This document shows, piece by piece, positions 1-61,962 of a stretch of 64,000 nucleotides of DNA. Position numbers and translations under genes: made by a program. The notes beneath the pieces were generated by a model. That model worked only from the letters and a program-made list of their open reading frames with translations. It was not told where the DNA came from and made no database searches. The stretch is from Octopus sinensis (lineage: Eukaryota), in contig NC_043014.1 in the NCBI RefSeq assembly GCF_006345805.1, positions 40,238,001 to 40,302,000 of the forward strand, read 5' to 3'. Position 1 is the stretch's first letter; every line of letters begins with the position of its first letter.

Positions 1-593
1 TAAAAGAAACGTTCACGATGATACTGTGTTGCTGCCAAAAGTCAGACATATATTTTCGGCTAATACACAGACAAAAAAATAAAGAACTGATTCACAGCCA
101 GTTCAAGAACTGTTTGATCATTTGGCATAGTGAAGAAAATTTTTATGAAAAGTGTTTTTAACAAGTGAAAAAAAAATTGGGTTTATGGCCATGATGTTGA
201 ATGAAAAAGATATACATACAAATATACACACAAGTATGTAAATGAACACACACATATATAGACATATACATATAAGTTCCAATGTACGTAAAGCGGTTAG
301 CTTTAAAGCTAAGGACTTTATGGACGTGAAACTCTGAGTAATCCCTATAGACTGATCATAACTGACTTTACCTAATTACTCTACTGCTCTATAACATAGA
401 GTGTGGCTTCTCCTTCGGATTTAGGATTAACTGACAATATATATATTGGTAAAAACGGTAAGATAACAAAAGAAAGAGAGAGACTTCAATATTATGTAAA
501 TAGAGGAAATTTATCTGTAAATTAATATGTGACAATAATTCAATAACCAAGATAAAACTCTGAGTTTCGCATGCCGAGGTGGAAATCTGGCCA

Positions 594-654
594 GATAACC
601 GAAGAGATGGTGTTGTGGATTTCCACCTCGGCATCCGAAACTCAGAGTTTTATC
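594..654 (+). ncRNA. Type-I hammerhead ribozyme-like motif (U4C core)
   Basis: GAUAA-CCGAAGA-GAUG..CAUC-C-GAAA-CUC-A-GAG-UU-UUAUC; stem I GAUAA/UUAUC, GUU triplet, stem II register off by one. Confidence 0.55.
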
Positions 655-867
655 TTGGCTATTGAATAATTGTCACATATCAATTTACAGATATATATAT
701 ATATATTATATATAGAGATATATATATATATGCATATATACGAACATACATATTAATAATCATATACATTATTATAACAAGGGATTGGCTATAAGCCTGG
801 AAAAACAGACACCAAAAGACGCTATTACCACCTATTATACACACGCGCACACACGTACTTATGTAAG

Positions 868-1063
868 GTTAGGTAAGGCCTGTTTGCGAGATTTCCCTGG
901 GTTTCACATCCATAAAGCCCTTAGCTTTATGGCGTATTATAATCAGATCCCAAACTTGTTGGGTTATGACTTCTCTAGAAAATGCTGATGATACGCCGTA
1001 AAGCTAAGAGCTTTAAGGACCTGGAAACCCAGGGAAATCCCATAAACCGGCCTTACCTAACCC
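868..1063. mobile_element. Fold-back MITE with about 70-bp imperfect TIRs
   Basis: ggttaggtaaggcc..cttagctttatggcgtat / atacgccgtaaagctaag..ggccttacctaacc. Confidence 0.7.
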
Positions 1064-1299
1064 TTATTTAGATAAAATAATGCCCTAAAACTTAGTGCCC
1101 TTCTTTTTCGGATTTATGTTTTACAGACGATATATATATATATATGGTAAGAAGCTTGCTTCTCAATCACATGGTTTCGGGTTCAGTCCCACTGCGTAGC
1201 AACTTGGGCAAAACCTTGTGAGTGGATCTGTTGACGGAAACTGAAAAAAGCTCGTGGTGTATATACATATATGTGTATATATATCTGTGTGGCTGTGTC

Positions 1300-1367
<68 letters not shown>

Positions 1368-1379
1368 CACATACATACT

Positions 1380-1423
<44 letters not shown>

Positions 1424-1435
1424 ATATATATATAA

Positions 1436-1468
<33 letters not shown>

Positions 1469-3540
1469 CTGTGTGGCTGTGTCTGCATATATATATATAT
1501 ATATATAATATATATATATATAATACACATATATATATATACAATATATATATATATATATACACATATATATATATACAATATATATATATATATATAC
1601 ACATATATATATATACAATATATATATATACACATATATATATATACATATATATATTTGCGTATATATATATATTTGCATATATATATATATACATATA
1701 TATTTGTATATATATATACATATATTTGTATATACATATATATTATACTTGCATATATATATATATATATATATGCCTATATGTATACACACACATATAT
1801 ATGCACTACGTATGTTTGTTTGTATGTATGTTACAGCGTGTGTGCGCACATGTAATGCGAGTAGTTGTCTGCTTTTGCAATGCAATTTTTACTTAGTTTT
1901 CATGCTATTTCGAAAATACTATTTTACAAAATTCTTGTCCTTTCTGCTGTTAGAAATGTCACCCGAGGTGGCATCCGTATCTTATACTTGTTGCATGCTT
2001 TTTCAACCATTAGAAATAGTCTAAAATTTATGAAGATTTCGAAATTAGTGCAAGTCTGACAGACAGCACGAAGCTAGCTAACGTTAGTCAACAATGGAAT
2101 AATGAAGAATGAGAGGGAGTAGCGAAACTGCGGATCTTTGCAGAATATTAGTAACGCAAGAGAAATAGTTAAATAATTAAACTGAAATCGCTGATAACTT
2201 GATCGAGAGTTCTGTGATTGCTATTCTCATCGATGCTGATAATCGTAGAGGGAAGCAAAAATGTATAAATGTGAAACTTAAGCCTTCTTTCATTTCAGAG
2301 TAGCGTGTGTAAAGGAAAGAATTGTGAAAGACGAGGACGAGTTCGTATTTAAAGCACCAAGAAACTTCAATTTCCGTAGCCAAATGAATAACGAAATATA
2401 TACAATAATATTTTGAAATTAAGCTAAAGTGGGTTTGATTGTAAATGAATATGTAAACTGACAATATGTAATAAAGTAACTAAAATGCCAGTGAATGAGA
2501 AAGAAATAAACAAATATGAGAACTCACGTTTAGCAGCACAATATATCCAACAAAGAAAAGTTTCTGAGAATGATGATGATCTCAATAAACAATAAACGTG
2601 CTTCTTTTTTACAAATAGTTTCTGTATTCAGCTTGTGTGTGTATATATCTATACATATATAAACATATATAAGTATATATAATAGATATATAATAGATAT
2701 ATATACAACGGTTGGCTCTTCAACGGAAACAAAACTTATACTAACAATTGAAAGTTGAGTTTAAAAGTTTTGTTTTGACAATAGTTGTTGAAGAAAAATA
2801 ATGTTGATTGTTTATATAAGTAGCTGTTGATGGTTTCGGAGCTTAACTGTTGCTTTGGAGTCCAATGCAGATAATAAGAATTGAAAGTTTTTTCTCCCAA
2901 TTTATATTGTAACCAGACGAAAATCCCAAATCTATTTTCAGAAAATCCGGTTTCATTGTTTACACACAGTGGACGGTTACAGAAGAAAGACAACTCTTCG
3001 TTCATATTTAGACTTAATTGAATCAATGAATCATTACACTAATTGCAATAATCGACGAAATATTTTAGTTGGGGGCTTTGTTATGAATGGGAAATTTGCC
3101 CTTGTCGGGGATTTGAACACAGAAATTACGAAGGGACTCCTAACAATATAACACAAAGCATTTTGTTCGCCGCCCTAACAATACGAGCAACGCACCGCTT
3201 TGTGAAAAAGTAACGCAACTACTTTTAAACTCATAGCAGCAGGTGTTTTAAATATGCGTATTCGACTTAAAGAGCGCCTTATATTGTTAAACCCCCACCG
3301 AATACTTCGTCTTTATGATTTCAGAATAGTTAAGGAAAGACAAGTCTATGAAACTGATCAAAGCTATTTCGTCAAAATATTTTTTTTTTAAATCTTTACC
3401 TGTGGTTTATAATGTCATGTGCAAGGTAAACCGAGCTTTCATATTGTTATGATACTACCGTGTATTTTGCTTTTGAGTTCTCTCTGTGTTAGATAAACGT
3501 TGCTTGTAGAACAAAATCCGCGGCACTGCTTAAATACAAA

Positions 3541-4016: not shown

Positions 4017-5115
4017 AATAGATGTCTATGGAGAAGGGGAGAACAAAACAACCACAAAACATAAAAAAACAACAAACCACGAAACTAACAGAAAACAAAA
4101 CAACTAATAAAGCTGAACAAAACAAAACTCTATTTTCCTTCCTCTTGAAGTGTTGGGTATTTATTCCGAAACTCAGACCTGATTTCAATATCTTTATGAG
4201 ACATATTTATATTTCTTTAGTTAGATTGAGAGGCTCGTAGCTTTGAAATTAGGGCGTTGCTGTCACAATCGCAAGATCGCGGTTTCGATTCCTGGACCAG
4301 GCAGTGCATTGTGTTCAGGAGCAAAACATTTCGTTTCACGTTGCTCCAGTTCACTCAGCTGGCGAAAGTGAGTAAGCCTGCGAAGGACTGGCGTCTCGTC
4401 CAGGGGAAATGTTGTGATCTCGATCACTTATAAACGCCATGGAAACCGATTAACCGACCCTATGAGTTCAAGAACTCGAGATAAATAATGCCAGTAAAAA
4501 TGTTTAATTGTATTGCTTGTCTTGTAACATAAATCATACGTAGAAACACATTCAGACTGAAGAAACTATCATCACAACTTTATAATTACGAATTGATAAA
4601 AAATAAAGGAACTGGAACTCGTCGTGGATGTGAAAAGAATAATGATTTTACGGGATGGAGGTTAGTCGATGTAATCGATTCTAGCGGTTATCTGATACGT
4701 ATTTTATCGACCCCAAAAGGAATTAAGTGCAGAGACGATCTCGGCGGGATACGAACTCAGAAAGTAAAGAACCGGGAAAATGTCGCCAAGTATTTTGTCC
4801 GACACGCTAACGATTGTGCCAGCTCCCCACTTTTGATAATCTATTTATTTATTTGTATAATCAAAAGCGATGATGTGATTTGGCATTTTTGATCGATATC
4901 GTAAACTGCTTAATTGATAGAAGAAAAAAAGTAGTAACCCGTTTAAACGCAGGGGTCCCAGTCACCGGGCTGCGGGTCAGGATCGGGATGTGGGATCATT
5001 TGGTAGCATGCTTCACCGAAAGAATAAATTTTAAATTTTTATTTTTATTTTATTGATCATTGCAGTCTACTGGTAGTTTTTTTTTTTTTTTTTTTTTTTT
5101 GCATTATATATGTAG

Positions 5116-5365
5116 GGCATTCTTTCGATATAACTCGACAAAATCAAAACATTTCATTTTCGGTATTTCCGTGGAAGCAAATGACAGTTCGATTCTGTTT
5201 TCTGCTTGGAAATTTGCGAAATTTACATACACCCACGAAACAGGTGAGAACAAATATGCAAGGGTGTTTTTTCTTCAAGTTTAAAATGAGACCTGTACTC
5301 CACAACCCACGGAAATACCCGAAATGAACTGTTTTGATTTTGTCGAGTTATATCGAAAGAATGCC
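5116..5365. mobile_element. MITE with about 58-bp TIRs
   Basis: ggcattctttcgatataactcgacaaaatcaaaac.. matches its reverse complement at about 5308-5365. Confidence 0.8.
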
Positions 5366-5623
5366 ATATGTATTATTTATGTGATAATTAAATTAGATAT
5401 TATGAATGTTATTGTGTGTTGCTCTGCGTGTGATTCCTCTGATCCGTGGAAAAATTGTCTTGAATGTAACCGAAGGTAATGCCCCATCCCACAAAAAAAG
5501 GGAAAAAAAAGGGGTTGGGATCTTTGGTTTAACTGTTGCAAACGTCGGTTTATATTGACCATAACAATATTAGAAATACAAAGTACAAGAATTGCAAATA
5601 AATAAATATTTATTTCTGATATT

Positions 5624-9002: not shown

Positions 9003-12000
9003 GGTTAGTCGAACAAACCAACCTCTACGTCTGTCGGTTATTTTTACAGAACCGCTATGTTATGGGGGCGTAAACAAACGAACACCGGTTGTCAAGCAGT
9101 GGAGGAGACGAACACAAACACGAAGAAACGGTGCGCACACACACACACAGACAGACACGATATAAAAGTAGTTCATAGTAGACTAGTAAGCTAATAAGAC
9201 ATGTTTCCCGGATTCTGTGACGTAAATATTCCTCCCTGGGACGAGACGCTGTTCCATCGCAGGAACACTCACTTTTGCTGCCCAGTAGAATGGAGCAACG
9301 TGAAATGAAGTGTTTTCCTAAAGAACACAACGCATCGCTCCGTTCAAGAATCGAAACCACAATCTAACGTTTGTTAGTGCAACACCCTAAACCACTGAGC
9401 CACGCTCCTCTACGTTGATCAGAATTACACAATAAATGTTACTTAGCATCAATTTTACTAGTAGTTATGTTCGTATTTTTGCGAAAAGTCCTACTTAAGG
9501 TTGGATGACCAACACACACAGACTCTCATACACACGAACTTACACGCACACACACACAAACATACACACACATACACACACTCACGATATAAAAGTAGTT
9601 CATACGAAGTTATTAACGACAGAATAAGTAGGAATTAAATGAATGCACATGATCATGTGTGCATGATTCAGCACTTAAAGATCTTTTTTGTTAGGCTGCA
9701 CCTGGGGAAATTTTATAGTTTTATAGTTGGTATATTAATGTAATTTTCCACGCTGAATCTCAGGAGGTAATTCACCTTTTCCCAAGGTTAAAAACAAAAA
9801 CAAACAAACAAACAAAAAAGGTACAGAGATTTAAAGTTTGGCAAATTTTACCCAGTCAGAAAACAGGATTTGGAAGTTGTCATTTTGTGCGTGACTTGCA
9901 CGTGTTGTCAATTGTAACCAAATGAAATATTGGCGGAATTCTGCTTTGCGCATGCCATATAACCCCTCGTAACTTTTTTATTTTTTGGAATTTTCAAAAA
10001 ATTCTTGCCATTTTGTATTCTACACACAGGAGTTTATACGATTATGCAAATAAATAAGTAAATAAAATTGTGATTGATTTAAAGTCTATTTAGCTGTTAT
10101 TTTTTTAACATCTCATTCCGCATTTGTTATAAGCATTTAATAAGCGACAAAAAGAACACGTGGTTAGCAGCCTGGTAACAGTTTGGCTTGTTACTATGGA
10201 ATGTTGCTTTCCATTGGCTAAAATTACTCAAAATTCGAAAACTTTAAAAGTTATTAACTCTTTTTTTTTTAATATTTATCCACCCTTTTCAAGCCTAACC
10301 TGGCTCATGGGCCCGGTTTCCCGGTTTTGTGGCGTATGTGTTCCCCCACCCCAGCTGGACGGGACGCAAGTCCATCGCAGCATTACTCAAGAAAGAGTGA
10401 GAGAAAGTTGGGGTCGCCACCACCCCCTGCCGGAGCTTCGTGGAGCTTTAGCTGTTTTCACTCAATAAACACACACACCGCCTGGTCTGGGAATCGAAAC
10501 CGCGATCCTCCGACCGCGAGTCCGGTGCCCTAACCACTGGGCCATTGCGCATCCACGATTAACTCTTTACTTATTGATTTATAGCGAACATGAATTTCAT
10601 GTAAATGATTACTTTACAAAACTACACCAGAAGACCCAATATGAAATTAATCGGAACAAAAATTGAAGAAATTGAAAAATGACAGCCTAACAAAAGACCC
10701 TAATCTTGGTGCCATGAGATCCCGTCGTAATGTATTGTGAGAAGTTTGCTTCACAACCACATGGTTCAGGGTTCGGTCCCGGTACGTGTCACCTCAGGCT
10801 GATCAAAGCCTTGTAAGTGGATTTGCTTGACGGAAACTGAGAGAAGCCCGTGTGTGTGAATACAGATACTCACACATATGACGGGATCTCATGTGATTTC
10901 CGTTTGCGAAATTCGTTCACTAGCTACTGATCGACCCCGGGCTATAGTAGAAGACACTTGCCCAAGGTGCCGCGCAGTGGGACTGAAACCAAATCCACTT
11001 GGTTGAAACTAAATCAACTTCTTAACCACAAATCTATGCCTCCTCAAAAAAAGTTTAAAAAATTTTTTAATTTAAAAAAGAAAAGAGAAGAAAATGTGTG
11101 ATTTGGTCGCTTTTGTTCGCTAGGTCAACGTTAAGCTGAAACCAGAGAAGCTACAACAGGATGTTTTATTTTCAGCTAGAAAACTAGTGATTTAATTCTT
11201 TGACAACTTAACTGTCGTCTGAATTCTAATTTCTATTAAGCTTATCTAAAATTCCGAGATTGTCTCTGCCAGTCTACACCAGAATTCAAAATGGAGGATC
11301 AGAGGCACTTTATGAATCGTCTATAATATATTAAAAATGAACATCAATCTTGCCTGCTTGTTTGCAATGTTGCACAGCCAAACTGGCGTGTAATGGGAAA
11401 ATACTTTGAAAATAAAGTGACCCTGAAGTGTGAAGACAAACAGAATAAAACAAGTTTCGCGTATGTCGGACCAGTGATTATTGAGATATTCGGAGTTTTG
11501 GGGGCATAAATACCTAAAACGGTGCATTATGGGAAAATACCCCAAAAATAACTTAACCCTGAAAGGGAAGAACCTCTAACGTTTCCATTAGATACATTAT
11601 GATGGGTAAAATATTTTAAAGTGAAAATGACTTTAATAGTACGAAAATATTTCGTAAAAGACCCATTCGTAACCTCGGTGTCAAATAGTTTTTTTCCTAT
11701 AGTTTTCTTTCGAGTTCATTCAACGTATCTCACCTCCAAAGATTTGGCTACTATTTCTAGCACGCCCTGCTACCACGCAACAGCTATTGCGATAAAGGAC
11801 CTGAAATACCTGTTATGTCGTAGCAGGGCGTGCAAGAAATACCAGCCAAATTTTCCTTTCTGGGGAAAGGAGCCATTTACGCGTGTTTTCGATGTCACAT
11901 TCGTTGAAAGCATGAGAAATATCCTGGAAGATAAAACAAAAACCTACGAAACAAAACTCCGTTGCTGGGAAACTCAGACTTTCCCGGTTATCCTACGGGT

Positions 12001-12885: not shown

Positions 12886-13064
12886 CTAGCAGACTTTAAA
12901 TAAAGTAACAACGAAAAGCAAGCAGCACATTTATTATGCATGAAAACAATTTCTATAAATACTACATATTTATGTATGCATAAAAACTTTTGAAATGAAA
13001 TACGTTAGGTTATAAATATGAATCGCTGAAGTATACGTTCATAACACAAAAGTATACGTATACG

Positions 13065-13480
13065 GGATCTTTTCGGTTTGAACGGCAGTTTTTTCTAGCG
13101 GTGTCATATGAAATTGTCACCCATAATTATGACCCTAGTATCGATCTATTGCATTTCTATCTGTTTTAGGGTTAGAGTTAGGGGTGGGGGAAAGGTTTCT
13201 TTTTTTCTTCACAAATGTAAATAAACCCAATCTGTTTCTTAAACGAGGGACATATTCATACGGCACAGAATGTTTTCACCTCAATAGACGTCACTGATTG
13301 GTTGAAATTGCAGAAATTGAAGAAAAAAAACAACAAATATCTTACAAACTATAGAATTTTCTCAATAAAGCCAAGAGAAAAATATGTTTTATAAACACAT
13401 TCTACCAGTATACGAAGTTTTAAAATGTTTAGTTACGTGGAAATTATTTTAAAAGACTGCCGTTCAAACCGAAAAGATCC
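13065..13480 (-). mobile_element. Second copy of the 6561 MITE, inverted
   Basis: Near-identical reverse complement; TSD cgtatacg (8 bp), or gtatac (6 bp) if termini are GGG/CCC. Confidence 0.88.
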
Positions 13481-13699
13481 CGTATACGTTCATAACACAC
13501 CCGCGTGATCTGTCTTACGGTAGAAGTGCGACGGCATGTGCAGATGATGTTACCGCCACCGTGTCTGATGAAGGGCAACTCGTGTAGAAGACGCCATCAA
13601 AGGATACGAAGCGGTTGGCAGGGGCAAAAATTAACCAGGAGAGAAATCAGTCGGCTTGCAACTCGGCACCTGGCGTGGCAGGTCGATGCGTCCCAACAG

Positions 13700-17276: not shown

Positions 17277-18080
17277 TAGGGTGCCCACCAAAATTTGACA
17301 TCATTTCATCACCTAATAACGTGAACAATTTTCGTCCAAATTGTCTTAAGTTTTAGCAGTATGTCTAGAATTGCTTACATTTTAAAAATATGATCCTTCG
17401 TATTTCGTTTTTGGATTTGGTTTGCAAGATTCTTTGTTTGAGTTCGTGTGTTGAAGCATATTCTGTTGTGTCTGGGGAGAGTCATTTTCTTTTTGTGCCT
17501 TATAATGTAACACACGCACCGGTAAAATTTCCACTTATTTCTTATTTTTACTTTCCCAAAATTTTCGTTGCGTCTTGCAACCTTTACAATAGTCTTGACT
17601 CTCAAGACTATTGTAAAGGTTGCAAGACGCAACGAAAATTTTGGGAAAGTAAAAATAAGAAATAAGTGGAAATTTTACCGGTGCGTGTGTTACATTATAA
17701 GGCACAAAAAGAAAATGACTCAGATCCTTCGTATGTTTTTCTTTTCAGGATTAGATACGCCGTTTACTGCAACAGAAAAGGCGTTTTGTTTATTGAAGTA
17801 CACCCAAATTTAGTTAAATGGGAATGTGCAACGTTTATTTGTTAGGCGATTTCATAAACAGGGAAGCAGATTTGGACGTGGCATAAGAAGGTTCAAGAAG
17901 AAGGCTGTTTGTGTATGGAAAAAAAAAGGATCTGGACGGCCAGCAGTTTCAGAAGAGATGGTGAACCAACTTCGGGAAACGCTTAGACCACAGAAATCTG
18001 TGCGAAGACCAGGCCCGGAAACCCGGATCTCCAAGTCAAATGTTTGGTGTGTTGTAAGAAAACGCTTATACATGAAGACA
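17277..18080 (+). mobile_element. Tc1/mariner relic (left TIR-like end plus transposase N-terminal HTH), interrupted
   Basis: TA-TAGGGTGCCC end; FTATEKAFCLL..VQRLFVRRF..KKKGSGRPAVSEE..PQKSVRR..SNVWCVVRKRL with a stop codon. Confidence 0.75.
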
Positions 18081-19624: not shown

Positions 19625-20944
19625 AGGAAATATATTTAAGAATTTACAAAAAAATTGGAGAGGAACCGATCTGTCTTTTTGGCATTTTTTCTGTTGCGTA
19701 TGAGAGGAGCACAGTAGTCAATTGAGTCCATCATTAAGATTGTCCCACCTTCTTCCTTCAACAAGGAAAAGCAGGTAACTTTTCTCTGTTTAGTGGCTAT
19801 AGCAAAAGAGGTTGTGTGGTTGAGGCGTGTGAAAGGGATAAGGACGGGCAACTTTCTGTCTGGCATTGGTTTGACCTAATACTATATTCATCATTTAAAA
19901 CAAAACAAAAAAAAAAGCTACATCCCGTTATATTCATTATATTTGTCAATTTTTAACCATTAACAAACTTATTTATTTCGCTTTGTTATATCCATTCGGA
20001 TCTTCCACATTGTCGCCATTACTCCTTCTTGCCTATCCTGTATTGTCCCTCTATGTATAGCCTTTTGTGGCAAATAAAAATTTATATTTTCATAAAACAC
20101 GTAAAGAAGTTTTCTCTTACTCACTCCAGGTAATTTTCCAAACTTCCTTTGGAAATGGAAGAATCCCCATGAAAAAAAAAAAACAAGCATAAAAAGGATG
20201 GTAATAACGTTAAACTTGTATAGTAACAATTTTACGCTTTATACTGAATTGTTAAAATCTGAATTAAAAATTCTGAAAACCACTACAGTATTGATTGTTA
20301 CGCATGAAGAAAGAAATGGGTGTGCTGTGCTGTTGAAAGCTAAAAGTATTTTATACAATTCCATTTGCTCATAGAGGCGCGGTAAGACTTGACATTGAGT
20401 GGTGAATAAGATATTAATAGAGCTGGTAGAATTTAGTGACTTGGCTTCAGGCCTTGTAGCTGTGATAAAAATGATATGTAGAATTTTAAAACTGGGTATA
20501 AACCCTTGCCTAAAATACCAGACTCCACTCACGCATTCGCTTGATCTGTTTTTCACTTGATAAACAAAATGGTGATTAACGAGATGTTAAGGAGTTTTAT
20601 AACGATTTGTAACTTCATCAGGTATTTGGGGGAAATTTCGAACCTGGGTTCTCATTCCTAAAGTATTTTGCGATGTTATTATTATTATTATTATTATTAA
20701 TATCATTATTATTATTATTCAGGTCACTGTTCTTAACCACTACGCCATATACCCAAGCAGTGACCTGAATAATATAATAATAATAATATCGTAAAATACC
20801 TTAGAGAACCCAGGTTCGAAATTTCCCCAAGACACCTGATGAGCTGGAGGATATATCAGCCGAAACGTTATGAGGACAAATATCCATCGAATGTAAATAA
20901 TATAAATAATTCCTCGTCTCTTAAATATAGAACTGGACGGGAAA

Positions 20945-23770: not shown

Positions 23771-24432
23771 CTGGGATTATCTTATTTATATGGTGGTTAT
23801 TCTCCCGAGTAAACCTCGTAATCAACGTATCTATCTGTCTATAATGGAGAAATTATACAAAATGTATAAGGAAATGATGAGTAAAATACCGGCACAGTTT
23901 CGATTACCTGTTGTTATCTGTAGATTTATTGCAGGAACTACGTAGTGGCGGTTGGGGTAACAGTATTAATAAGATAGAAGGCGGCGAGCTGGCAGAAACG
24001 TTAGCATGCCGGGCGAAATGCGTAGCCGTATTTCGTCTGCCATTACGTTCTGAGTTCAAATTCCGCCGAGGTCGACTTTGCCTTTCATCCTTTCGGGGTC
24101 GATAAATTAAGTACCAGTTACGCACTGGGGTCGCTGTAATCGACTTAATCCGTTTGTTTGTCCTTGTTTGTCCTCCCTGTGTTTAGCCCCTTGTGGGTAG
24201 TAAAGAAATACGTATTTCGTCTGCCGTTACGTTCTGAGTTCAAATTCCGCCGAGTTCGACTTTGCCTTTCATCCTTTCGGGGTCAATAAATTAAGTACCA
24301 GTTACGCACTGGGGTCGATGTAATCGACTTAATCCGTTTGTTTGTCCTTGTTTGTCCCCTCTGTGTTTAGCCCCTTGTGGGTAGTAAAGAAATAGGTATT
24401 ACTAAGATAGATTGAATAAAAGATTTTATTTA

Positions 24433-24474
24433 GTACGACATATGTTTCGACCCGTTCTGGGTCTCTTCGGGTAC
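24433..24474 (-). ncRNA. Minimal type-I hammerhead ribozyme (U4C core)
   Basis: GUAC-CCGAAGA-GACCC-agaac-GGGUC-GAAAC-AUAU-GUC-GUAC; diverged mirror copy on + at 25337-25378. Confidence 0.7.
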
Positions 24475-24959
24475 ATAAATAAATAAATAAATAAATAAAT
24501 AAAAAGTCTCCCTAGAGATTTCCTGATTCGGTTTTACGCACCGCTACATGCCCACCAACTTCGGGAATGAGTAAAAAAGAGAAAAATTGAAATTAAAAAT
24601 GAAAAATTCAAATATTTAAAGGCGGTGCTCCAGCATGGCCGCAGTCAAATGACTGAAACAAGTAAGAGTAAGAGTAAGAGTATATGAACGTGAAAGTTAT
24701 ACATTCTAGTTTAGAGAAAATGACGTAATGAGCCGTCGCTTTTGTAACTGTTAAGACAAAGAAGAAGAAGTAGAAGTTGAAAGGAAGATAATACCACATT
24801 TTCTTTAAAATCTAAAATGTATAATTTTCATGTTCATATTTGAATTTTTCGGGTTTCAATTTTTCTCTAGTTTTTACTCATTCCCAAAGTTGATGGACAT
24901 ATGGCGGTACGTAAAACCGAATCAGAAAATCTCTAGTGAGACTTAATTTTTAAAATTTA

Positions 24960-25331
24960 CTAGCAGTATCGTCCGGCGTTGCTCGGGTTTGTTTCCACCC
25001 TTTAGAATTGGAATTTTTGAAAAGTAAAAAATTTGCATTATGTGAACATTTTTCTGGTTAAAATACACCGAAAAATGGCGACACAGCAGTAAAAAAAAAT
25101 CGTAAAAAATAGGGATTTTCATAGTAAAAAGCACCTTTTTGATGTAAATAATTTTTGGTGTTAACATGGTCCGATTTGAAATTTTTCTTCTACGGAAGGA
25201 AGAGCAAGCCTTCTTCTATCATACTCTCAATTTTGGTCAACTTGCGTCGCAGGGTCTCGGAGGAGATAGAGTTAGTTGAAGGCTACCAAACCTGCCACAC
25301 ACAGACAACTTCAGCTTTACACATATAGAGA
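24960..25331 (-). mobile_element. Non-autonomous Helitron with the same ends
   Basis: ctagcagtatcgtccggcgttgctcggg at one end and atatagaga|t at the other; interrupts an inverted-repeat arm. Confidence 0.7.
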
Positions 25332-25686
25332 TTTATGTACCCGAAGAGACCCCGAATAGATCGAAACGTGTGTCGTTCTAAATAAAATCTTTTATTCCAT
25401 CTATTTTATTAATACTATATATAAATCTTTAGTTAAATATATTCAATGAGAATATTATATACTGAATTTATATTGAGTGCTCTATTGTATCCAAGTATTA
25501 ATACTATTAAAGTATTCATATATTTAATACGAGCGATTATCTACATATATATTTTATAATATATTATTATTAATACCAGGAAAACAATTATTTTACACAC
25601 GTATATATCTTTCTGAAGAATTTTCTAATATTGATTTCCTGATATTAATAATAATAATAATAATATATTATAAAAAATAATACTAT

Positions 25687-26064: not shown

Positions 26065-26440
26065 TAAATTAATTAATTAAGAAGTAATCAATAATTTCAG
26101 AATTCGGCATGAATTCGGCATGAAAAAAGGACCATTTCATGGTAAACTTAAGTAATACTTAATAATTAGGGTTCAGCAAAGATTTGCTTTACCACATACC
26201 GAAGTTTAGAAATAGCTATTTCTTCTACTTTAAAAAGGGACTCCCATGGGTGACCAGATATAGATTGATTTGCTTTATTTTTCCTCTGCCCACGTGGATT
26301 GTTTTCAAGTATTTTGGTTTTTCTGGGAGTCCCTTTTTAAAGTAGAAGAAATAGCTAAGGTTTTTTGACTGCTATTTCTAAACTTCGGTATGTGGTAAAG
26401 CAAATCTTTGCTGAACCATAATTATTAAGTATATATATAT

Positions 26441-27236: not shown

Positions 27237-27240
27237 CACA

Positions 27241-29919: not shown

Positions 29920-30355
29920 TAAATATTAGGAATAAATCCAATTTACAGGGAAAAAATCAGAGATTAAGATTAATCGATTTTATATTAAAATTATAAAATA
30001 TTATCGAGACAAAACCATATTTGCAAAACAAACAAGGAAAGACTTAATAATACATAAAATTTAAAAAAATAGTCAAAAAAAACCGCACTACAATCGTTTC
30101 TGTCTTGATCGACAATCTTCAGTGGACTTCCAATAATAAGAGAAGGAGGAGTTGCAGGTAGTAAGAGTGATCCTTCTATAGTGTCTCATTATAATTATAA
30201 TTTGACACTGAATTATTGGAAGTCCACCTGAAGATTGTCGATCAAGACAAGAAACGATTGTAGTGGCGTTTTTTTTTTGACTATTTATTAAAATTTTATG
30301 TATTAATTAAGTCTTTCCTTGTTTGTTTTGCAAAATAGTGGTTGTTGTCTCGAAT
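29920..30355. mobile_element. (TA)n-embedded Penelope-like pLTR/retrozyme fold-back element
   Basis: Inverted arms, each with an HHR; related pieces at about 35888-36048, 40693-40760, 48091-48333, 50372-50390, 50870-50915 and 62001-62258, all next to (TA)n. Confidence 0.65.
30224..30266 (+). ncRNA. Minimal type-I hammerhead ribozyme
   Basis: CCAC-CUGAAGA-UUGUC-gaucaa-GACAA-GAAAC-GAUU-GUA-GUGG; indel-damaged mirror copy on - at about 30085-30125. Confidence 0.8.
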
Positions 30356-33560: not shown

Positions 33561-33602
<42 letters not shown>

Positions 33603-33999
33603 CCTCATCATCATCGTTCAATGCCTGTTTTCCATGCTAGCATTGGTTGGACAGTTTGACTGAGGTTTGGCAAGCCAGGAGGCTGCACCAGGCTCCAGTC
33701 TGATCTGGCAGTGTTTCTACAGCTGGATGCCCTTCCTAACACCAACCACTCTGAGAGTGTAGTGGGTGCTTTTTACGTGCCACCAGCACGTAAAATAATA
33801 ATAATAATAACAAATAATAATAATAATAATAATAATAATGATCACCATGTTGCACACATATGGTTGTGATGCATGTACCTGGTATCTCCTTATCAGACGG
33901 GTAGTCATGATGGGTATATTGGGCTTCATATATTTTACCCCGGTGTCACTTTGATGGCATGAATTGCTCTCTCACTCAATAATAATAATAATAATAATA

Positions 34000-34032
<33 letters not shown>

Positions 34033-34108
34033 TAATAATAATAATAACAAAAACAGCAGCATCGAAAACTACCTTAGGAATGAAAACTCAGGTTCGAAAT
34101 TTCCCCAT

Positions 34109-34154
34109 GACACCTGATGAAGGCTGGAGGGTATATCAGCCGAAACGTTATGTT
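34109..34154 (+). ncRNA. Ultra-minimal Penelope-type hammerhead motif
   Basis: GACAC-CUGAUGA-A-GGCUG..CAGCC-GAAAC-GUU-AUGUU; sibling copy at 20831-20872; inverted partial copy at about 33530-33548 reads GAAACGUUGUGUU and restores stem I. Confidence 0.6.
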
Positions 34155-34265
34155 AACAACAAACAAGATAAGGACAAATATCTGTCGAATGTAAATAATG
34201 TAAATGTAAGTCTGTTTATATACGCACATGGTTGTTACAATTGAATTTTAATTTCATCATATCAG

Positions 34266-34423: not shown

Positions 34424-35528
34424 GTAAAGTTAAAATATTGTTAATTATCGTTATATGACGTCTTTTGTCTTTATGTTTTATTTGTTTCAGTCACTGGACT
34501 GTGGCCATGCTGGGGCACCCACTTGAAAGGTTTAGTTAAACATGCAAATCGATTTCAGTACTTATTTTTAAAGTAAAGTCTGGTACTTATTCTATCAATC
34601 ACTAAGTTATGGGGATGTAAACAAACAGGAGTGGCTGTGTGGTAAGTAGCTTGTTTACCAGCCACATGGTTCCTGGTTCAGTCCCACTGCGTGGGACCTT
34701 GGGCAAGTGTCTTCTACTATAGGCTTGGGGGCGACCAAAGCCTTGTGAGTGGATTTGGTAGACGGAAACTGAAAGAAGCCTGTCGTATATATGTATATAT
34801 ATATATATATGTGTGTGTGTGTTTGTGTGTCTGTGTTTGTCCCCCTAGCATTGCTTGACAACCGATGTTGGTGTGTTTATGTCCCCGTTACTTAGAGGTT
34901 CGGCAAAAGAGACCAATAAAATAAGTACTGGGCTTACAAAAGAATAAGTCCCGGGGTCGAGTTGCTTGATTAAAGGCGGTGCTCCAGCATGGCCACAGTC
35001 AACTGACTGAAACAAGTAAAAGAGAAAGAGAGAGAAACGTTGGTTGTCAAGTGGTGCTGCTGGTGATGGAAGACAAACAGAAACAGAAAGATGCATGCAC
35101 ATACACGCACACATACACATACATGTGATGGGTTTTCACAGTTACCATCGGCCAAATTCACTCACAAGGCATCGACCAGTTTGATTAATCTGAGGCCACA
35201 GAGTCAAACGCAGGTGTTATTCAAATGATTTGAATAACACCTGTGTTTGACTCCGTTTCTTAATTTATTCATGTTATACAGAAACATTTCACTTGACCCT
35301 TGAATTTCCACCTTTATAAGTAGGCTGTAATATCCTTGGCACCTATGTGAATTTTTGCCACCCTGGTAACTATTTACTTTTGTTCCTTGTTATTTGTACA
35401 CATTGAAAAAATATACATAAATAAATAAATAAATAAATAAATATGTATATATTTTTTTCAATAGACATAAATATATATACATGTATATATGCATATTCAT
35501 CACTGCACTGCTAACTGATCACAACAAC

Positions 35529-35695: not shown

Positions 35696-38600
35696 CTGTA
35701 GGTTTGCAGGCGTGGTTGTGTGGTAAGAAGCTTGCTTCCAACCACATGGTTCCAGGTTCATTCCACTGCATGACACCTTGGTCAAGCGTCTTCTACTATA
35801 GCCTTGGGCTGACCAAAGCCTTGTGAGTAGATTTGGTAGGCAGAAACTAAAAGAGGCCTGTAGTATATATATATATATATATAATGATATTAGGGAGTAT
35901 GGCTCCAAAAATTAGATTTAGGATTAAATCAAATTTCACAGTATAAATATAAATTAAATTAGAGATAAAACCACTATTAGGCAACTCAAACAGTGATAAA
36001 CTGTTTGAGTTGCCTAATAGCGGTTTTATCTCTAATTTAATTTATATATATATATATGTATATATCTATGTGTGTTTGTCATTGTGTCTGTGTTTGTTCC
36101 CTTATCACCACTTGGTAACTGGTGTTGTTATGTTTACCTCCCTGTAGCTTAGCGGTTCGGCAAAAGAGACTGGTAGAATAAGTGCTAGGCTTCAAAAAAA
36201 AGTCCTGGTGTCAATTTGTTAGACACCTGAAGCAGGTGTATTAGTTTGACACTGAGGAAAGTGAGAAAGTCTTTTATGTTTCGAGCCTCTGCTCTTCAAC
36301 AGAAATAAACAGAAAGAGAATGAATATACTTGTGGATTTAACGATCAATCATGGCAATTTTGTAGATCTAGTCACAAGGCTTTGGTTGATCTAGTGCGTA
36401 GGGGCTAAAATAGAAGACACTTACTCAAGGTGCCGCACCCTGGGACTGAACCTGAAGCTGCACAACATCTTGGTTTAAGAAAATTATGCAGCTTAAAACA
36501 TCTTGAAAAACTAACCACATATGAAACCATTTGTCAATGGTCATAAAGTAATATCATACTTAAGCAGCTAAGAAGGATATAGTTTGAATCTAAAATTATT
36601 TCTTTCTGCAATTAGAAAGAAAGCATTTAGTCAAAATCATTGAAACAATTCAAAATTTTATTACACAGTTGCAATTATGTACTATAAATAATGCGCATAA
36701 TTAATTAGATGGAGGATAATTTTAACGACAATGACTGTAGCAATCATCGCTTTGTCACACAGGATATTGAATAATCCCTAAAAATAGTCTCTGCTTAATG
36801 ATTCGCCAAGGCATTGTGTTGTTCATTATATCCTAATTGCTCTTAAATTTTCTGCAATGGTTCTTTAAACTATCTCATCACGACCATCATCATCATCGTT
36901 ATTATTTTACGTCCGCTTTCCATGCTGACATGGGTTTACGTTCCGAGTTCAAATTCCGCCGAGGTCGACTTTGCCTTTCATCCTTTCGAGGTCGATAAAT
37001 TAAGTACCATTTACACACTGGGGTCAATATAATCGACTTAATCTGTGTGTCTGTCCTTGTTTGTCCCCTCTGTGTTTAGCCCCTTGTGGGTAGTAAAGAA
37101 ATAGGTTTGACTGAAAACTGGGGCCGCACCAGGTTCCAATCTGATTTGGCTAGGTTTCTACGGCTGGAACCCTTCCTAATGCCAACCACTATTGCAATAA
37201 ACTATTTTAGCTCTGTTGGATTCGTTTAAGCTCTTAATTGTAACATGCAAATGATATCCTCCTTTGCACCAATCATGTTTTTGGTGCCCTTGCACATCTT
37301 TATCATGGTGGTCATGAGGAACCTTCCAGAAAATTGGGCTTTATCTATACCAGTGTTTCCCAGCCTATTTTCCCTTAGGCCCCAACAATAAGTTTCCAGA
37401 AAAATGTATGCCCCATTGGTGGTTGGAAAAAAAAGTATAGGTGCAGTATGTTTGGTGAAGGCTTGTGGTTTAGTAGTTAGGGGTATTCAGCTCCTGATCA
37501 TAAGATCATGAGTTCAATTCCCAGCTATGCGTTGTGTCTTTGAGCAAGATACTTTATTTCATATTGCTCCAGTCTACTCAGCTGGCAAAAATGAGTTGTA
37601 TCTGTATTTCAAAGGGCCAACCTTGTCACATTCTGTGTTGTGATGAATCTCCCTGAGAACTACTTTAAGGATACATGTGTCTGTACAATGCTCATCCACT
37701 TGCATGTTAATTTCATGAGCAGGATGTTCCGTTGATCAGATCAATCGGAACCCTTGTCATCATAACCGACAGAATGCCAGTTATGTTTAATGTAAAAAAT
37801 AGATTTTCACAATTCCATGTCCCACTATAAAAAAAAAAGAAGTTTTGGACCCCATGCCCCACCACAATTTTCCCAGGTCCCACTGGTGGGACATATGCCC
37901 ACATTGGGAATTCCAGCCAAAAATGAGTGGCAGTCTAGTTTGCCGTAACTCAATGCAAGATTTTAATAATTAATAAGAAAACATTATTTTTTAGAACAAC
38001 TAAAAATATCATTGTTTCTATTTTTTTTTTCTTAATTGTGTTTATTGTTATGAATTTGAATTAATTAATTGACTTTTCCTGATCTTTAGTGTCCATCAAT
38101 GGATGGACATCTGTCTCAGCTTCTAAGTTTAACATGATGCTTATCTAATGTACAGTGTGCTTCTGATGGTTACACTTATAATTTTGGTTCTCTTTTTACA
38201 GGAATAAATATCTAAACTTATTAAAAACTAATGACACTCAGTACTGATTCAATGATTTGACTGTAATTGGCATTAGGAAGGCATCTAACCATAGAAACCA
38301 TGCCAAAGCAGACACTGGAGTTTGGTGCAGTCCTCTGGATCATCAGCTCTTGTCAACCCTTCCGATCCATGCAAGCATAGAAAAGCAGACATTAAACAAT
38401 GATGATGATGATGATGATGATGATGATAGTAAGGGTGGTGGCACAAAGTCAAGGGCTTGATTGTATCACATTGTCATGACATCATGTGATAGTTGAAGAT
38501 GGGTGTCACCACCATACAAGTGGTGGTGGTATTCAGTTCTAATATTCCATAAAAATATATCTGGCTACAGGGAACTATTTATTTATTACCTTGCTTGGAA

Positions 38601-48087: not shown

Positions 48088-48335
48088 ATAAATATTGGGG
48101 AATGAATCCAAAATTACAGGGAAAAATCAGATTTAGGGTTAAATCCAATTTTATAGTAAAATATTATATAATATAATTCGAGACAAAACCACTATTTTAA
48201 AACCAAACAAGGAAAGACTTAATCAATACATAAAATTTAATATAAATTAAATAAAATAAATATTAAAATTTTATGTATTGATTAAGTCTTTCCTTGTTTG
48301 GTTTTAAAATAGTGGTTTTGTCTCGAATTATATTA

Positions 48336-50872: not shown

Positions 50873-51391
50873 AAATTATTAGAGATAAAACCACTATTAG
50901 GCAAATCAAACAGCGAAAACATAAACCAAACATAAAAATTAAAAAATTATTTATAATATACAAAAATATATAAAATATATAATTTAAAAATTAAATTATT
51001 TAAAAATAAAATTATTAATTTATATTTATAAATTTTTATTTTATTTTATTTATCTATTTATTTATTTTTATTAAATATATATAACTATCAAAAAGTATTA
51101 AAAAGTTTAATATAAGATAAAAAGTAAAGACAAATATATATATATAAATATATATATATAAAAATATATATATATATATAATATTTCAATAGGTGAATGA
51201 ATTATCCCATGTTTATCGTCAGCATGGAAAATTCGTTGAGCCGATACCAGGGTAGCAAATTCTTGTCAGAAACACGGTTGAAGCGACCTGTCCAAGTGTA
51301 GAAACTCTGGGTTCGTTTGCAGAAATTTGTGTGTTATATATGAATAAATGAAAGAATGGAGTCGAACAAAGATGTTAACAAAATTCCTTTA

Positions 51392-51473
51392 CTCTCGACA
51401 TATGTTTCGAAGACCACATGGTTTCATTCCAAAGGAATAAAGGGTGTATGATGCAATCTTCTCATCAGGAAAG
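51392..51473 (-). ncRNA. Type-I hammerhead ribozyme with enlarged loop II
   Basis: CUUUC-CUGAUGA-GAAGA-(about 43 nt)-UCUUC-GAAAC-AUAU-GUC-GAGAG; 5'-truncated mirror copy on + at 51581-51656. Confidence 0.75.
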
Positions 51474-52085
51474 AAAGGGAGCCTCTCTCGGCAACAAGAC
51501 AAACAAAAATTTCGATGACTGCCTACATGGTAAACACAACGACATTGTCGTTGTGTTTACCATGTAGGCAGTCATCGAAATGATGAGAAGATTGCATCAT
51601 ACACCCTTTATTCCTTTGGAATGAAACCATGTGGTCTTCGAAACATATGTCGAGAGTAAAGGAATTTTGTTAACATCTTTGTTCGACTCCATTCTTTTAT
51701 TTATTTATATATATATATGTGAAACTAAGAGTAACAAGTTTTGTTGAATTTCTGCTGCTTTGAAATAAAGCATATTACTCTACCCCTGGTATTTGAGTAC
51801 TCTTTTTTTCCACCTTGTTTCACATTTATGTGTTTACTCTGGTATATATTTATATAATATATATAGATTATATATATATATTTATATTATATATATATAT
51901 ATATATATAGATTATATATATATGTAATATATAATGTATGTATATATACGCCTATTTATATATTACATACACACACACATAAATGCACTCATCCCACAAC
52001 ACACACACACACATCTGTTTCCAGATACCAGATATAACTGTGAATTATCACGTCTAATATTGAATGATGACTCATTTTCTTTCAG

Positions 52086-58164: not shown

Positions 58165-58195
<31 letters not shown>

Positions 58196-59135: not shown

Positions 59136-59216
<81 letters not shown>

Positions 59217-59461: not shown

Positions 59462-59496
<35 letters not shown>

Positions 59497-59801
59497 CAAC
59501 GGGCTTCTTTCAGTTTCCGTCTACCAAATCCCCTCACAAGGTTTTCGTTGACCCGAGGCTATAGTAAAGACACTTGCCCAAGATGCCACACAGTGGGACT
59601 GAACCCGGAACCATGTTGTTGGTAAGCAAGCTACTTACCACACAGCCATTCCTACGCCTATAATGATAATAACAGTGATAGTTAATTTTTGGGTTTTAAC
59701 AAGGATCTTGATGCAAAGCTTTAGAAGATATTTTCCACACATTGACAACAGAAAACTTATTCTCATTTTAATAAATGTTTTATAATATTGAATATTTGTA
59801 G

Positions 59802-59938
59802 GTCTGGAAAGCATGTCTAAGAATTTCCAAAGTATTGTCTCTTGTCTTCAAAATAAAACTTATAATTGTTTGGATCAAAGAAAGACCGAATATGATCAAG
59901 ACTTTGAAGATTTCAAAAGAAAAATACAAGAACTCCAT
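59802..59938 (+). CDS. DNAH5: DNAH5-like exon (G)LESMSKNFQSIV...LDQRKTEYDQDFEDFKRKIQELH; gene continues beyond the window
   Basis: ttgtag| acceptor, weak CAT|gtttgt donor, 137 nt (phase 1 to 0); LDQRK..DQD motif. Confidence 0.92.
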
Positions 59939-60559
59939 GTTTGTTATGAGACTTCCATTTCATTATTTAAAAAAAATATATTTGAAGTTATTTTGTTTTT
60001 AGTATTTTTTATACATCATCATCATCATTAGTGTCATCATCGTTATTTATCATCATCATCATCATCATTATCATCATAATCGTCATCACCATCATTGTTG
60101 TTGTAGTCGCTGTCATCATCATTATCATCATCATCATGAAGAATGATGATAAAATATTTATAAAAAATTGTCATTTAAGCTTCAATATATATATACTTTA
60201 TTTAAAAGCAGCAGAAATTCAACAAAACCTGTTACTCGAAGTTTCACGTTCCCGGGAATGTGAAACTCTGAGTAACAGGTTTTGTTGAATTTCTGCTGCT
60301 TTTAAATAAAGCATATTACTCTACCCCTGGTATTTGAGTACTCTTTTTTCCACCTTGTTTCACATTTATGTGTTTACTTCCGTATATTATATATATATAT
60401 ATATATATATAATAATGACCTCGAACACACAAGTGCAAACAAGAGAGACAGAGAAAGGCAGAAACAAGGAAAATGCCACTTATTTTTGAACTCTACACAA
60501 ATATTCCTTTAAAAAAACTTTTCTTTTAATTTTTCTAAATTTAATTATTTAATCATTAC

Positions 60560-60595
60560 AGTTGAAAAGGTCTCAAAATGACCGAAACCGGTACT
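60560..60595 (+). ncRNA. U3-A8 hammerhead-like motif with weak stem I
   Basis: AG-UUGAAAA-GGUC-ucaaaau-GACC-GAAAC-CG-GUA-CU; identical copy on - at 61900-61935. Confidence 0.5.
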
Positions 60596-61128
60596 AAAAT
60601 GTTCTTTATAAAATTATTTTAGCATTTTCTATCTTGACTTGTTTTTTCATATATATATATATATATATACGTTTAAATATTTGTTGTGCAAGATTTTTTA
60701 TGTGAAGTCGTGTGTTGAAACAGATATTGTTATATTTCGGAATGGTCATATTGCCAGTTTAGCCAATAAAAACACACGCACTATATATTTGGTGTTATTT
60801 TGCTTCAGTGATATTTATTTTTTACATTAATCTTAATCTTATTTCGGCCAAGTTCTTTCGTCACACTCCTGTGACCGCATCAGTGGTCCTTTGTTTTCTT
60901 CTCACTTACTTGTGTCTCTCCTTACATCCGTAAGAGAGACACAAGTAAGTGAGAAGAAAACAAAGGACCACTGATGCGGTCACAGGAGTGTGACGAAAGA
61001 ACTTGGCCGAATAAGATTAAGATTAATGTAAAAAAAATATCACTGAAGCAAAATAACACCAAAATATAGTGCGTGTGTTTTTATTGGCTAAACTGGCAAT
61101 ATGACCATTCCGAAATATAACAATATAT

Positions 61129-61177
<49 letters not shown>

Positions 61178-61317
61178 GAGGGCATTATACATACATGCCA
61201 GAAGGCATTATACATACAAGCCACACGCTAAGAGGGACAATTAGTCATTTCTACCAAAAATATTACTAATCCCAACCGAATGCAATTTTTCAAAGTAAGA
61301 CATTTAAAAAATATATA

Positions 61318-61363
61318 GACCTGTATCACAGTGATTTCATACTTACGTATTCATCAGCAGGCC
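61318..61363 (-). ncRNA. Canonical-core type-I hammerhead ribozyme
   Basis: GGCCUG-CUGAUGA-AUAC-GUAA-GUAU-GAAA-UCAC-U-GUGA-UA-CAGGUC; mirror copy on + at 61510-61554 has GAA (1-nt deletion). Confidence 0.8.
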
Positions 61364-61962
61364 TGAATGTATTATAAATAAACAACGACCCTGCCCCGCT
61401 TAAGCCGATCAGCTAACTGATCAACATCAACTGATCAAAATCGTTGATGTTGATCAGTTAGCTGATCGCTTAAGCGGGGCAGGGTCGTTGTTTATTTATA
61501 ATACATTCAGGCCTGCTGATGAATACGTAAGTATGAATCACTGTGATACAGGTCTATATATTTTTTAAATGTCTTACTTTGAAAAATTGCATTCGGTGGG
61601 ATTAGTAATATTTTTGGTAGAAATGACTAATTGTCCCTCTTAGCGTGTGGCTTGTATGTATAATGCCTTCTGGCATGTATGTATAATGCCCTCTATATAT
61701 AAATTAATATGTTCAATAAGAAATAATTATTTTCGAAATTTTTTCTCTTATGAGGTTCTCACGCTATCTACCTGACAATTTCTTGTTAAGTTTTCCTTAT
61801 TAAGTAGTTGTCCTTAATTGATATATATATATATATATATATATATGAAAAAACAAGTCAAGATAGAAAATGCTAAAATAATTTTATAAAGAACATTTTA
61901 GTACCGGTTTCGGTCATTTTGAGACCTTTTCAACTGTAATGATTAAATAATTAAATTTAGAA

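What the first reader, a model, noticed from the sequence alone, without database searches (positions are those of the whole stretch)
513..61700. Consistent outward polarity of HHR fold-backs suggests a double-primed insertion mechanism
Seen: in nine inverted-repeat structures (513-692, 20612-20940, 24397-25416, 29920-30355, 33440-34205, 51340-51710, 60196-60311, 60724-61126, 61171-61700) the HHR or HHR remnant is on the minus strand in the left arm and the plus strand in the right arm. RNA 3' ends therefore face the flanks, usually (TA)n, and variably truncated 5' ends meet in the centre. Inference: both ends of a break in (TA)n prime reverse transcription and the two cDNAs join head-to-head. 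Inverted pLTRs are known in Penelope elements; the strict polarity across unrelated families is the notable point. The pair 60560(+)/61900(-) is an inward-facing exception.
Basis: partly seen in the sequence, partly recalled or inferred. Interest (0 to 1): 0.72.

Follow-up and report, generated by a model that had tools for sequence, protein, structure and literature searches.

The report
Twin-primed Penelope retroelement fold-backs
These hairpin-shaped repeats are head-to-head insertions of Penelope-like jumping genes, a layout already known for this class, but almost every one carries the extra end piece on exactly one arm while either arm can be the longer, so they likely form when both ends of the cut DNA start copying the element's RNA at two fixed points.

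Summary
All nine fold-backs are real and face outward. So do 14 of 14 pairs in 1.2 Mb sampled blind (SINE-like control 17 outward, 21 inward). They are truncated Penelope-like elements (PLEs). The head-to-head polarity is in print (PMC3846280, PMC8557442) and cannot separate double priming from the published self-priming idea.

Other features can. In 113 of 115 two-armed loci exactly one arm carries the 3' tail (70 of 71 with tail-neutral queries). The tail-less arm is the longer at the 5' end as often as the tailed arm (33 vs 29 loci), which copying one arm from the other cannot give. Arms share source variants, splice state and paired short ends; joins are enriched for microhomology.

Best reading (inferred): the two ends of a cut (TA)n prime at two fixed RNA sites, likely on one RNA, and the cDNAs are end-joined. 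The "inward exception" is two separate tail-less solo copies. The one junction aimed at directly was not bridged by short-read contigs, and no empty allele was seen. This scan noted the same design before on other DNA (213 notes, at least 34 genomes), some with a twin-priming reading.

The parts
445..692 (.). Family F1 fold-back: tail (about 445-512) plus left arm on minus; right arm on plus with a full variant hammerhead at about 593-655; (TA)n on both sides
   Evidence: tail matches 12 other F1 loci (read by eye)
20613..20940 (.). Family F2 fold-back, older: short minus remnant on the left, plus arm with hammerhead core at 20836 and tail on the right
   Evidence: tail read by eye against L104
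24396..25415 (.). Family F3 arms (24396-24480 minus, 25331-25415 plus) around an 850-bp spacer with other repeats; tail not determined
29923..30355 (.). Family F4 fold-back: tailed minus arm, about 60-nt foreign spacer, longer tail-less plus arm with hammerhead at 30228-30262
   Evidence: L128
33440..34205 (.). Family F2 fold-back: tailed short minus arm, spacer with other repeats, tail-less plus arm with hammerhead core at 34114
   Evidence: tail read by eye
48092..48334 (.).
51181..51713 (.). Family F5 fold-back: tailed minus arm with hammerhead at 51397-51468; tail-less plus arm with an internal deletion
   Evidence: L235
60191..60378 (.). Family F9 fold-back: tail-less minus arm and tailed plus arm; 3' half of the hammerhead only; 2-nt overlap at the centre
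   Evidence: (L326)
60414..60656 (+). Family F8 solo arm, tail-less, (TA)n at both ends (left member of the 'inward exception')
   Evidence: L296
60674..61126 (.). Family F6 fold-back: tailed minus arm and tail-less plus arm; non-canonical hammerhead-like motif; the family is the 3' end of a GIY-YIG frame
   Evidence: (L265)
61169..61820 (.). Family F7 fold-back: tail-less minus arm (hammerhead 61324-61357) and tailed plus arm; the family is a 480-bp tandem hammerhead unit
   Evidence: (L158)
61839..61971 (-). Family F8 solo arm, tail-less, (TA)n at both ends (right member of the 'inward exception')
   Evidence: L295
62003..62274 (.). Extra F4 fold-back: full tailed minus arm (hammerhead 62176-62210) and a 22-nt tail-less plus arm
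   Evidence: (L141)

Best explanation
These are head-to-head pairs of 5'-truncated Penelope-like element copies in (TA)n, likely made when both ends of one endonuclease cut prime reverse transcription at two fixed sites of the element's RNA, likely on a single RNA molecule, after which the two cDNAs would be end-joined. Shown: outward polarity, one tail per pair, either arm longer, shared source variants, short microhomology or inserts at the join. Inferred: one DNA end starts at the tail end (site A) and the other at an inner site (B) 30-160 nt upstream, which in 5 of 6 families ends in an A/T-only, TA-like run that could pair with the target. Each cDNA runs until it stops or falls off the RNA start, and host end-joining links the two 3' ends. 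If the second end does not prime, a solo arm results.
For: One tail in 113 of 115 two-armed loci of six families; 70 of 71 with tail-neutral queries. The same holds in 5 of 5 resolved long loci (8 fetched) and 12 of 12 F1 loci. Free choice of site by each end would give at most half. The tail-less arm is longer by more than 10 nt in 33 loci, the tailed arm in 29, and 51 are within 10 nt. In the three non-tandem, frame-bearing families it is 24 vs 9 of 37, median difference 106 nt; extremes are 1.1 kb (L263), about 1.4 kb (L249/L357) and about 2.6 kb (L194/L355). In L277 the tailed arm is tail only, so neither arm contains the other. Two tail-less F4 arms joined directly to their partner reach the first base of the short RNA (L148, L203). 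Microhomology of 1 nt or more occurs in 50 of 59 joins without an insert, against 43% in the null (p 4e-11). Same source: F4 site -60 is 19 G/G, 19 A/A, 0 mixed, and arms are closer within than between loci in 5 of 6 families (p_diff at most 0.02). F4 arms are spliced in both arms in 29 of 44 pairs, unspliced in both in 5 further loci, and never mixed. L112 has the same 430-nt foreign 5' piece on both arms. F4 ends just 3' of the hammerhead cut site come in pairs (4 pairs from 4 tailed and 5 tail-less arms, permutation p 4e-5). In vitro, the anole PLE cuts and extends both strands and starts at two internal sites that bound the tail (PMC11167929).
Against: Everything on mechanism is read from finished insertions; no intermediate and no empty site was seen. 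One RNA versus two sibling RNAs is not settled: the F4 A and G subfamilies differ in age (arm divergence 0.17% vs 0.79%), so allele concordance may only show a common source, and arm-to-arm conversion could add to it. No RNA-editing marks are shared by both arms; the one A-to-G cluster (L288) lies in a TA repeat. Two of 12 fetched F1 loci differ between arms at a polymorphic site (L368, L371, by eye). F9 shows no significant within-locus similarity (p_diff 0.099) and never has the tail-less arm longer (6 vs 0); in F4 and F9 the 5' ends correlate (rho 0.33, 0.45), as snap-back or central deletion also predicts. Exceptions are L320 (two tails) and L222 (none). In vitro the start site did not differ between strands, so the one-tail coupling is unexplained there. 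71 of 193 loci gave no pair; 18 of 27 F8 loci gave none and most of those checked are solos, so double priming is not obligatory.
Confidence: 0.6

Rival explanations
1. Dual priming on two RNAs: each break end is primed by its own RNA, held by one enzyme dimer or drawn from one active source locus, with the two subunits set to different start sites.
For: It explains polarity, either-arm-longer and microhomology equally well. It avoids displacing the first cDNA from the RNA. The anole protein is predicted to be a dimer (PMC11167929). Two F1 loci have discordant arms.
Against: No spliced/unspliced mixed pair (29 and 5 concordant), although both forms are common (892 and 1220 first-look candidates). 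A rare foreign 5' piece is on both arms of L112. Short ends near the ribozyme cut come in pairs. It needs an extra rule for one tail.
Confidence: 0.2
2. Self-priming or snap-back: one strand folds back and copies itself (published as self-priming on an antisense template, PMC3846280), the endonuclease trims the copy at site B, and later lopsided deletions at the palindrome centre make the tail-less arm look longer.
For: It gives the same polarity and identical arms. Many centres are near-perfect palindromes (51 of 113 within 10 nt). 5' ends correlate in F4 and F9, and F9 never has the tail-less arm longer. D. virilis endonuclease needs the tail for cleavage, as cited in PMC11167929.
Against: A copied arm cannot be longer than its template, yet the tail-less arm is longer in 33 of 113 loci, by more than 50 nt in 22. 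L277 has disjoint arms. Tail-less arms reach the RNA's first base with no room for a loop. F4 arms are mostly spliced, whereas the antisense model was proposed to explain intron retention. 31 of the 51 near-symmetric cases are F4, where both arms mostly end at the same RNA start.
Confidence: 0.13
3. Two independent insertions that happen to land next to each other in a (TA)n hot spot.
For: Hot spots are real: five families sit within 60191-62274, and inward neighbours across a TA tract occur (L136, L274, L281 and the window's F8 pair).
Against: Independent events give inward or direct pairs with (TA)n between them, no one-tail rule and no allele concordance. Observed 14:0 outward, 113 of 115 one tail, 0 of 38 mixed at F4 site -60.
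Confidence: 0.03
4. Long-read chimeras or assembly artefacts that mirror the sequence.
For: The F7 centre (61433-61440) had no cover in four short-read contig sets; see Tried and rejected. The assembly has homopolymer indels in arms.
Against: A chimera would mirror the flanks and stop anywhere. Here the mirrored part stops at the same two element positions in 113 of 115 loci, with a tail on one side only and arms 0.2-5% apart. The same architecture with target-site duplications is in print for other animals.
Confidence: 0.03

Closest known systems
Inverted-pLTR insertions of endonuclease-positive Penelope-like elements (PMC3846280; PMC8557442)
   Same: Inverted 5'-truncated copy at the 5' end, head-to-head, optional tail on one arm, partial tandems, (TA)n bias, hammerhead in the terminal repeat, C-terminal GIY-YIG frame.
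   Different: In print the tail is 30-40 bp and 'optional' or 'often' one-sided; here it is 30-160 nt and on exactly one arm in 113 of 115 pairs. The printed mechanism is self-priming on an antisense template or is left undefined; the arm-length data here argue against self-priming.
Anole Poseidon element PAc in vitro (PMC11167929)
   Same: Cuts and extends both strands of AT-rich DNA; reverse transcription starts at two internal sites that bound the tail.
   Different: [quoted passage not shown] I saw no model for inverted copies in parts 1-2 of 4, which hold the main text.
L1 twin priming and proposed dual priming (PMC2837659)
   Same: The second nicked strand primes at an internal RNA site (twin) or on a second RNA (dual); the two cDNAs meet at an internal join repaired by microhomology or end-joining.
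   Different: L1 twin priming yields an inversion with an internal deletion from a variable internal site. Here the second site is fixed near the 3' end and both cDNAs cover the same stretch, giving an inverted duplication.
Non-LTR retrozymes (10.64898/2026.07.22.740005)
   Same: F7 is a 480-bp tandem unit with one type I hammerhead per unit and no long frame noted.
   Different: F7 arrays end at the same two sites and form inverted pairs like PLEs; the preprint's main text has no occurrence of 'tail' or 'palindrom'.

Membership tests
EN+ Penelope-like elements | GIY-YIG endonuclease at the C-terminus of the frame, upstream of the terminal repeat | tested here: met
   F6 frame hits PF01541 at E 6e-4 and F8 at E 2e-4, both just under the cut-off; a related neighbouring copy passes it (E 1.6e-6). 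F5 has YIG and Cys motifs by eye but no Pfam hit.
EN+ Penelope-like elements | PLE-type reverse transcriptase in the same frame | tested here: inconclusive
   The F5 frame of 470 aa shows RT-like motifs by eye (motif identity recalled). Pfam, PDB and the protein search gave no hit. No tree was built, so no clade is assigned.
EN+ Penelope-like elements | Minimal type I hammerhead in the terminal repeat | tested here: met
   Structure-aware hits for F3, F4, F5, F7; variant cores by eye for F1, F2, F8, F9; non-canonical for F6. Cleavage not tested.
EN+ Penelope-like elements | Partial tandems, inverted 5'-truncated copy and one-sided tail | tested here: met
EN+ Penelope-like elements | Spliceosomal intron near the hammerhead, retained in some copies | tested here: met
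   F4 only: donor and acceptor motifs flank an intron ending 12 nt before the core; spliced and unspliced copies both occur.
EN+ Penelope-like elements | Short target-site duplication | not testable with these tools
   108 of 115 pairs sit in (TA)n, which hides duplications; no empty allele was obtained.
L1-type twin priming | Two inverted pieces of one RNA that do not overlap (inversion plus deletion) | tested here: not met
   Arms overlap over the whole shorter arm in nearly all pairs; L277 is the one disjoint case seen.
L1-type twin priming | Both cDNAs come from one RNA molecule | tested here: inconclusive
   Same source shown; same molecule not proven.
Self-primed (snap-back) palindromes | The copied arm is contained in its template arm | tested here: not met
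   The tail-less arm is longer in 33 of 113 pairs while the other arm holds the tail.
MITEs and DNA transposons | Fixed length with symmetric terminal inverted repeats | tested here: not met
   Centres vary from locus to locus and the outer ends are asymmetric.

The most novel reading that the evidence does not exclude
Penelope-like elements routinely integrate by coupled twin priming: one enzyme complex on one RNA primes the two ends of a cut at two fixed sites, so the inverted pLTR and the one-sided tail are two marks of the same step, no fold-back is needed, and the rule holds across unrelated families, coding and non-coding.
Probability: 0.55. Interest if true: 0.7.

Novelty: new variant of a known kind. 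Interest (0 to 1): 0.5.

Why it matters
How PLEs make their inverted repeats and one-sided tail is described as still undefined (PMC8557442), and the one printed model that I found is self-priming (PMC3846280). The counts here argue against that model. They tie the tail to the two start sites seen in vitro and give a sharp test for the existing anole system: the two strands of one target should start at different sites. If right, a telomerase-related enzyme would build both strands of its insert by two reverse-transcription events, unlike the usual single-primer scheme. The polarity itself is not new.

Tried and rejected
Reads. Laying four short-read contig sets on the F7 centre gave no cover at 61433-61440. 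A hole proves nothing: the tool filters records, and hairpins or a private allele could explain it. On F6 one contig at single-copy depth covers 60933 in two of four runs but was not listed as bridging. Arm-to-arm joints of other family copies recur in several runs, but with sides of only 20-33 letters. Neither junction is confirmed, and no empty allele was seen.

Motif-only polarity count: for the 3' half motif, 8 outward vs 5 inward (short spacers) and 10 vs 8 (long) among 165 blind inverted repeats. Many hits lie in SINE- and MITE-like repeats, so it was replaced by the family-oriented count.

Rfam found only two sub-threshold hammerheads in the window and seven in the genome. Folding of nine motifs was not significant against shuffles.

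Templated inserts: 9 of 31 inserts match nearby sequence at p below 0.05, too mixed to name a repair pathway.

Protein identification of F5 by Pfam, PDB and the large search failed; the Atlas gave no answer. An RT-like frame in L283 has no DNA match to other F6 loci and was dropped.

Rows dropped before counting: 7 of 122 automatic pairs (L238, L256, L225 spurious; L208 another subfamily; L174, L179, L187 run off the locus or reference). Three of eight extended loci stayed unresolved (L358, L359, L360). The partners of L199 and L202 were not reached.
Full report
Setting. The window is G000:C18:40238001-40302000 in a 2.72-Gb genome of 13,516 contigs. Its short interspersed repeats look octopus-like to me; that label is recalled and was not tested.

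Observation. Self-BLAST and the sequence show all nine inverted structures. I fetched 120 stretches of 10 kb chosen blind to content, six of them beside the window. A library of nine window families plus motif-anchored seeds gave 82 hits there. Same-family inverted pairs within 1 kb were 14 outward and 0 inward; five SINE-like control repeats gave 17 outward and 21 inward (Fisher p 2.3e-4). The F1 search table adds 14 of 14 outward pairs besides the window's own (counted from coordinates). A cruder motif-only count was noisy.

What they are. I searched the genome with six families; each search scores only the best 40 candidates or fewer, so the samples lean to young copies. F5, F6 and F8 are 3' ends of coding elements. 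F6 and F8 frames hit GIY-YIG just under the Pfam cut-off. F5 has endonuclease- and RT-like motifs by eye and an asparagine-rich linker, but no database hit. F7 is a 480-bp tandem hammerhead unit. F4 short copies are spliced: a 23-nt first exon is joined to an acceptor 12 nt before the hammerhead core, and long unspliced copies exist. 57 of 88 F4 arm ends lie within 8 nt of one start. The reference begins at that start, but two solos end there too and it fits an initiator consensus (recalled). These are Penelope-like elements by structure; the clades are not assigned.

The one-tail rule. Of 193 loci given to the pair caller, 122 had an outward pair and 71 did not; 7 pairs were dropped, leaving 115, of which 6 are the window's own. 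Every family has two 3' ends: an inner site B and an outer site A, 30-160 nt further. Exactly one arm reaches A in 113 of 115 pairs, and in 70 of 71 found with tail-neutral queries. The tail is left in 65 and right in 48. L320 has two tails and L222 none. Five of eight extended long loci resolved, all with one tail, and 12 of 12 F1 loci have one tail by eye. Both outer ends touch (TA)n in 108 of 115, and site B ends in a TA-like run in 5 of 6 families.

Which arm is longer. If one arm were copied from the other, the tailed arm would have to be the template and reach at least as far 5'. It is longer by over 10 nt in 29 pairs, the tail-less arm in 33, and 51 are within 10 nt; over 50 nt it is 17 vs 22. 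In F5, F6 and F8 it is 9 vs 24 of 37. L277 pairs a 36-nt tail-only arm with a 935-nt tail-less arm. Against my reading, F9 is 6 vs 0 and 5' ends correlate in F4 and F9; both are short families whose references stop at about the RNA start. Joins without an insert show microhomology in 50 of 59 cases against 43% expected; 42 joins have 1-30 extra or unresolved letters and 14 have more.

One source, likely one RNA. Arms are closer within than between loci in 5 of 6 families. F4 site -60 is never mixed in 38 pairs, but the two alleles mark subfamilies of different age. Splice state is concordant: 29 of 44 pairs spliced in both arms, 15 with one or both arms too short to tell, and 5 further loci unspliced in both. 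L112 carries one foreign 430-nt 5' piece on both arms. Ends 8-23 nt past the hammerhead cut site occur in pairs (p 4e-5), all in the older subfamily; this fits a cleaved RNA copied twice but also a symmetric deletion. No shared editing marks were found, and two F1 loci have discordant arms. Arm-to-arm conversion was not excluded.

The exception. 60414-60656(+) and 61839-61971(-) are both tail-less, each has (TA)n at both ends, and 18 of 27 F8 loci gave no outward pair. Two solo insertions in a crowded tract explain it. The other inward flags (L136, L274, L281) also have a TA run after the plus arm.

Artefact check. Short-read contigs did not confirm either junction laid. The anatomy argues against chimeras: unmirrored flanks, fixed ends and a one-sided tail.

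Literature. PMC3846280 (passages) calls head-to-head the most frequent arrangement, places the tail on one inverted pLTR and proposes self-priming on an antisense template. PMC8557442 (passages) describes the same layout and (TA)n bias across clades and calls the mechanism undefined. PMC11167929 (parts 1-2 of 4) shows both-strand cleavage and extension and two start sites. PMC2837659 (passages) defines twin and dual priming for L1. PMC4209133 (passages) describes PLE hammerheads. The retrozyme preprint was read in part 1 of 5 and by term search; PMC9977147 (passages) added nothing on mechanism. Six searches (listings) showed no paper proposing two-end priming for PLEs. The library lacks most subscription papers, and I saw no supplements or figures, where such a model could stand.

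Earlier notes of this scan. 213 notes in at least 34 genomes hold these words, and several reach a twin-priming reading. I had written the one-tail, either-arm-longer reading before that look-up. They are not independent support.

Verdict. The mechanism is inferred: two-end priming overall about 0.8, with one RNA 0.6 and two RNAs 0.2. The value lies in a counted rule that contradicts the printed self-priming model and can be tested in an existing in vitro system.

Noticed in passing
L129, L132, L136, L146, L150 and other F4 loci: One identical 12-nt centre recurs in both allele classes. In 7 of 12 readable arms that reach the RNA's first base, the next letter is the one a copied cap would add, but in most it is also the partner arm's letter.
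   Followed up: partly
L194, L355, L375-L410: Unspliced F4 copies are several kb long, with 680-830-bp repeats that each hold the first exon and splice donor, and one acceptor before the hammerhead; no coding frame was looked for.
   Followed up: partly
L112:430-886; L193:1120-1378: Foreign sequence is joined exactly at the F4 splice acceptor; in L193 it is family F2 sequence. These are likely spliced chimeric RNAs copied by the element.
   Followed up: partly
window 51548-51590; L043:7366-7742; L245; L260: F5 tail-less arms repeatedly start or jump at the hammerhead core (about -128): an internal deletion in two copies and the 5' end in two others.
   Followed up: no
L246, L249, L251, L253, L254: The F5 frame has a long asparagine-rich stretch between the RT-like and endonuclease-like parts, as reported for rotifer Penelope families (PMC3846280).
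   Followed up: no
window 17479-17721, 35198-35256, 35942-36052: Further short fold-backs that by eye resemble F6, F5 and F4 ends with a one-sided extension; not oriented by the library.
   Followed up: no
window 867-1062, 5113-5368, 11739-11854, 13056-13489, 26155-26432, 33206-33395: Other inverted repeats with no hammerhead call; 13056-13489 recurs at fixed length in blind stretches and looks like a MITE.
   Followed up: no
L139: A 39-nt insert of TA and TG repeats sits at an F4 centre, as if target-like DNA was copied into the join.
   Followed up: no
L090:1-1084: A perfect palindrome of at least 1084 bp at 100% identity that runs off the stretch; a very young element or an assembly artefact.
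   Followed up: no
window 60191-62274: Six insertion events of five PLE families are packed end to end around shared (TA)n tracts; L277 and L281 also have F8 beside an F6 end.
   Followed up: partly
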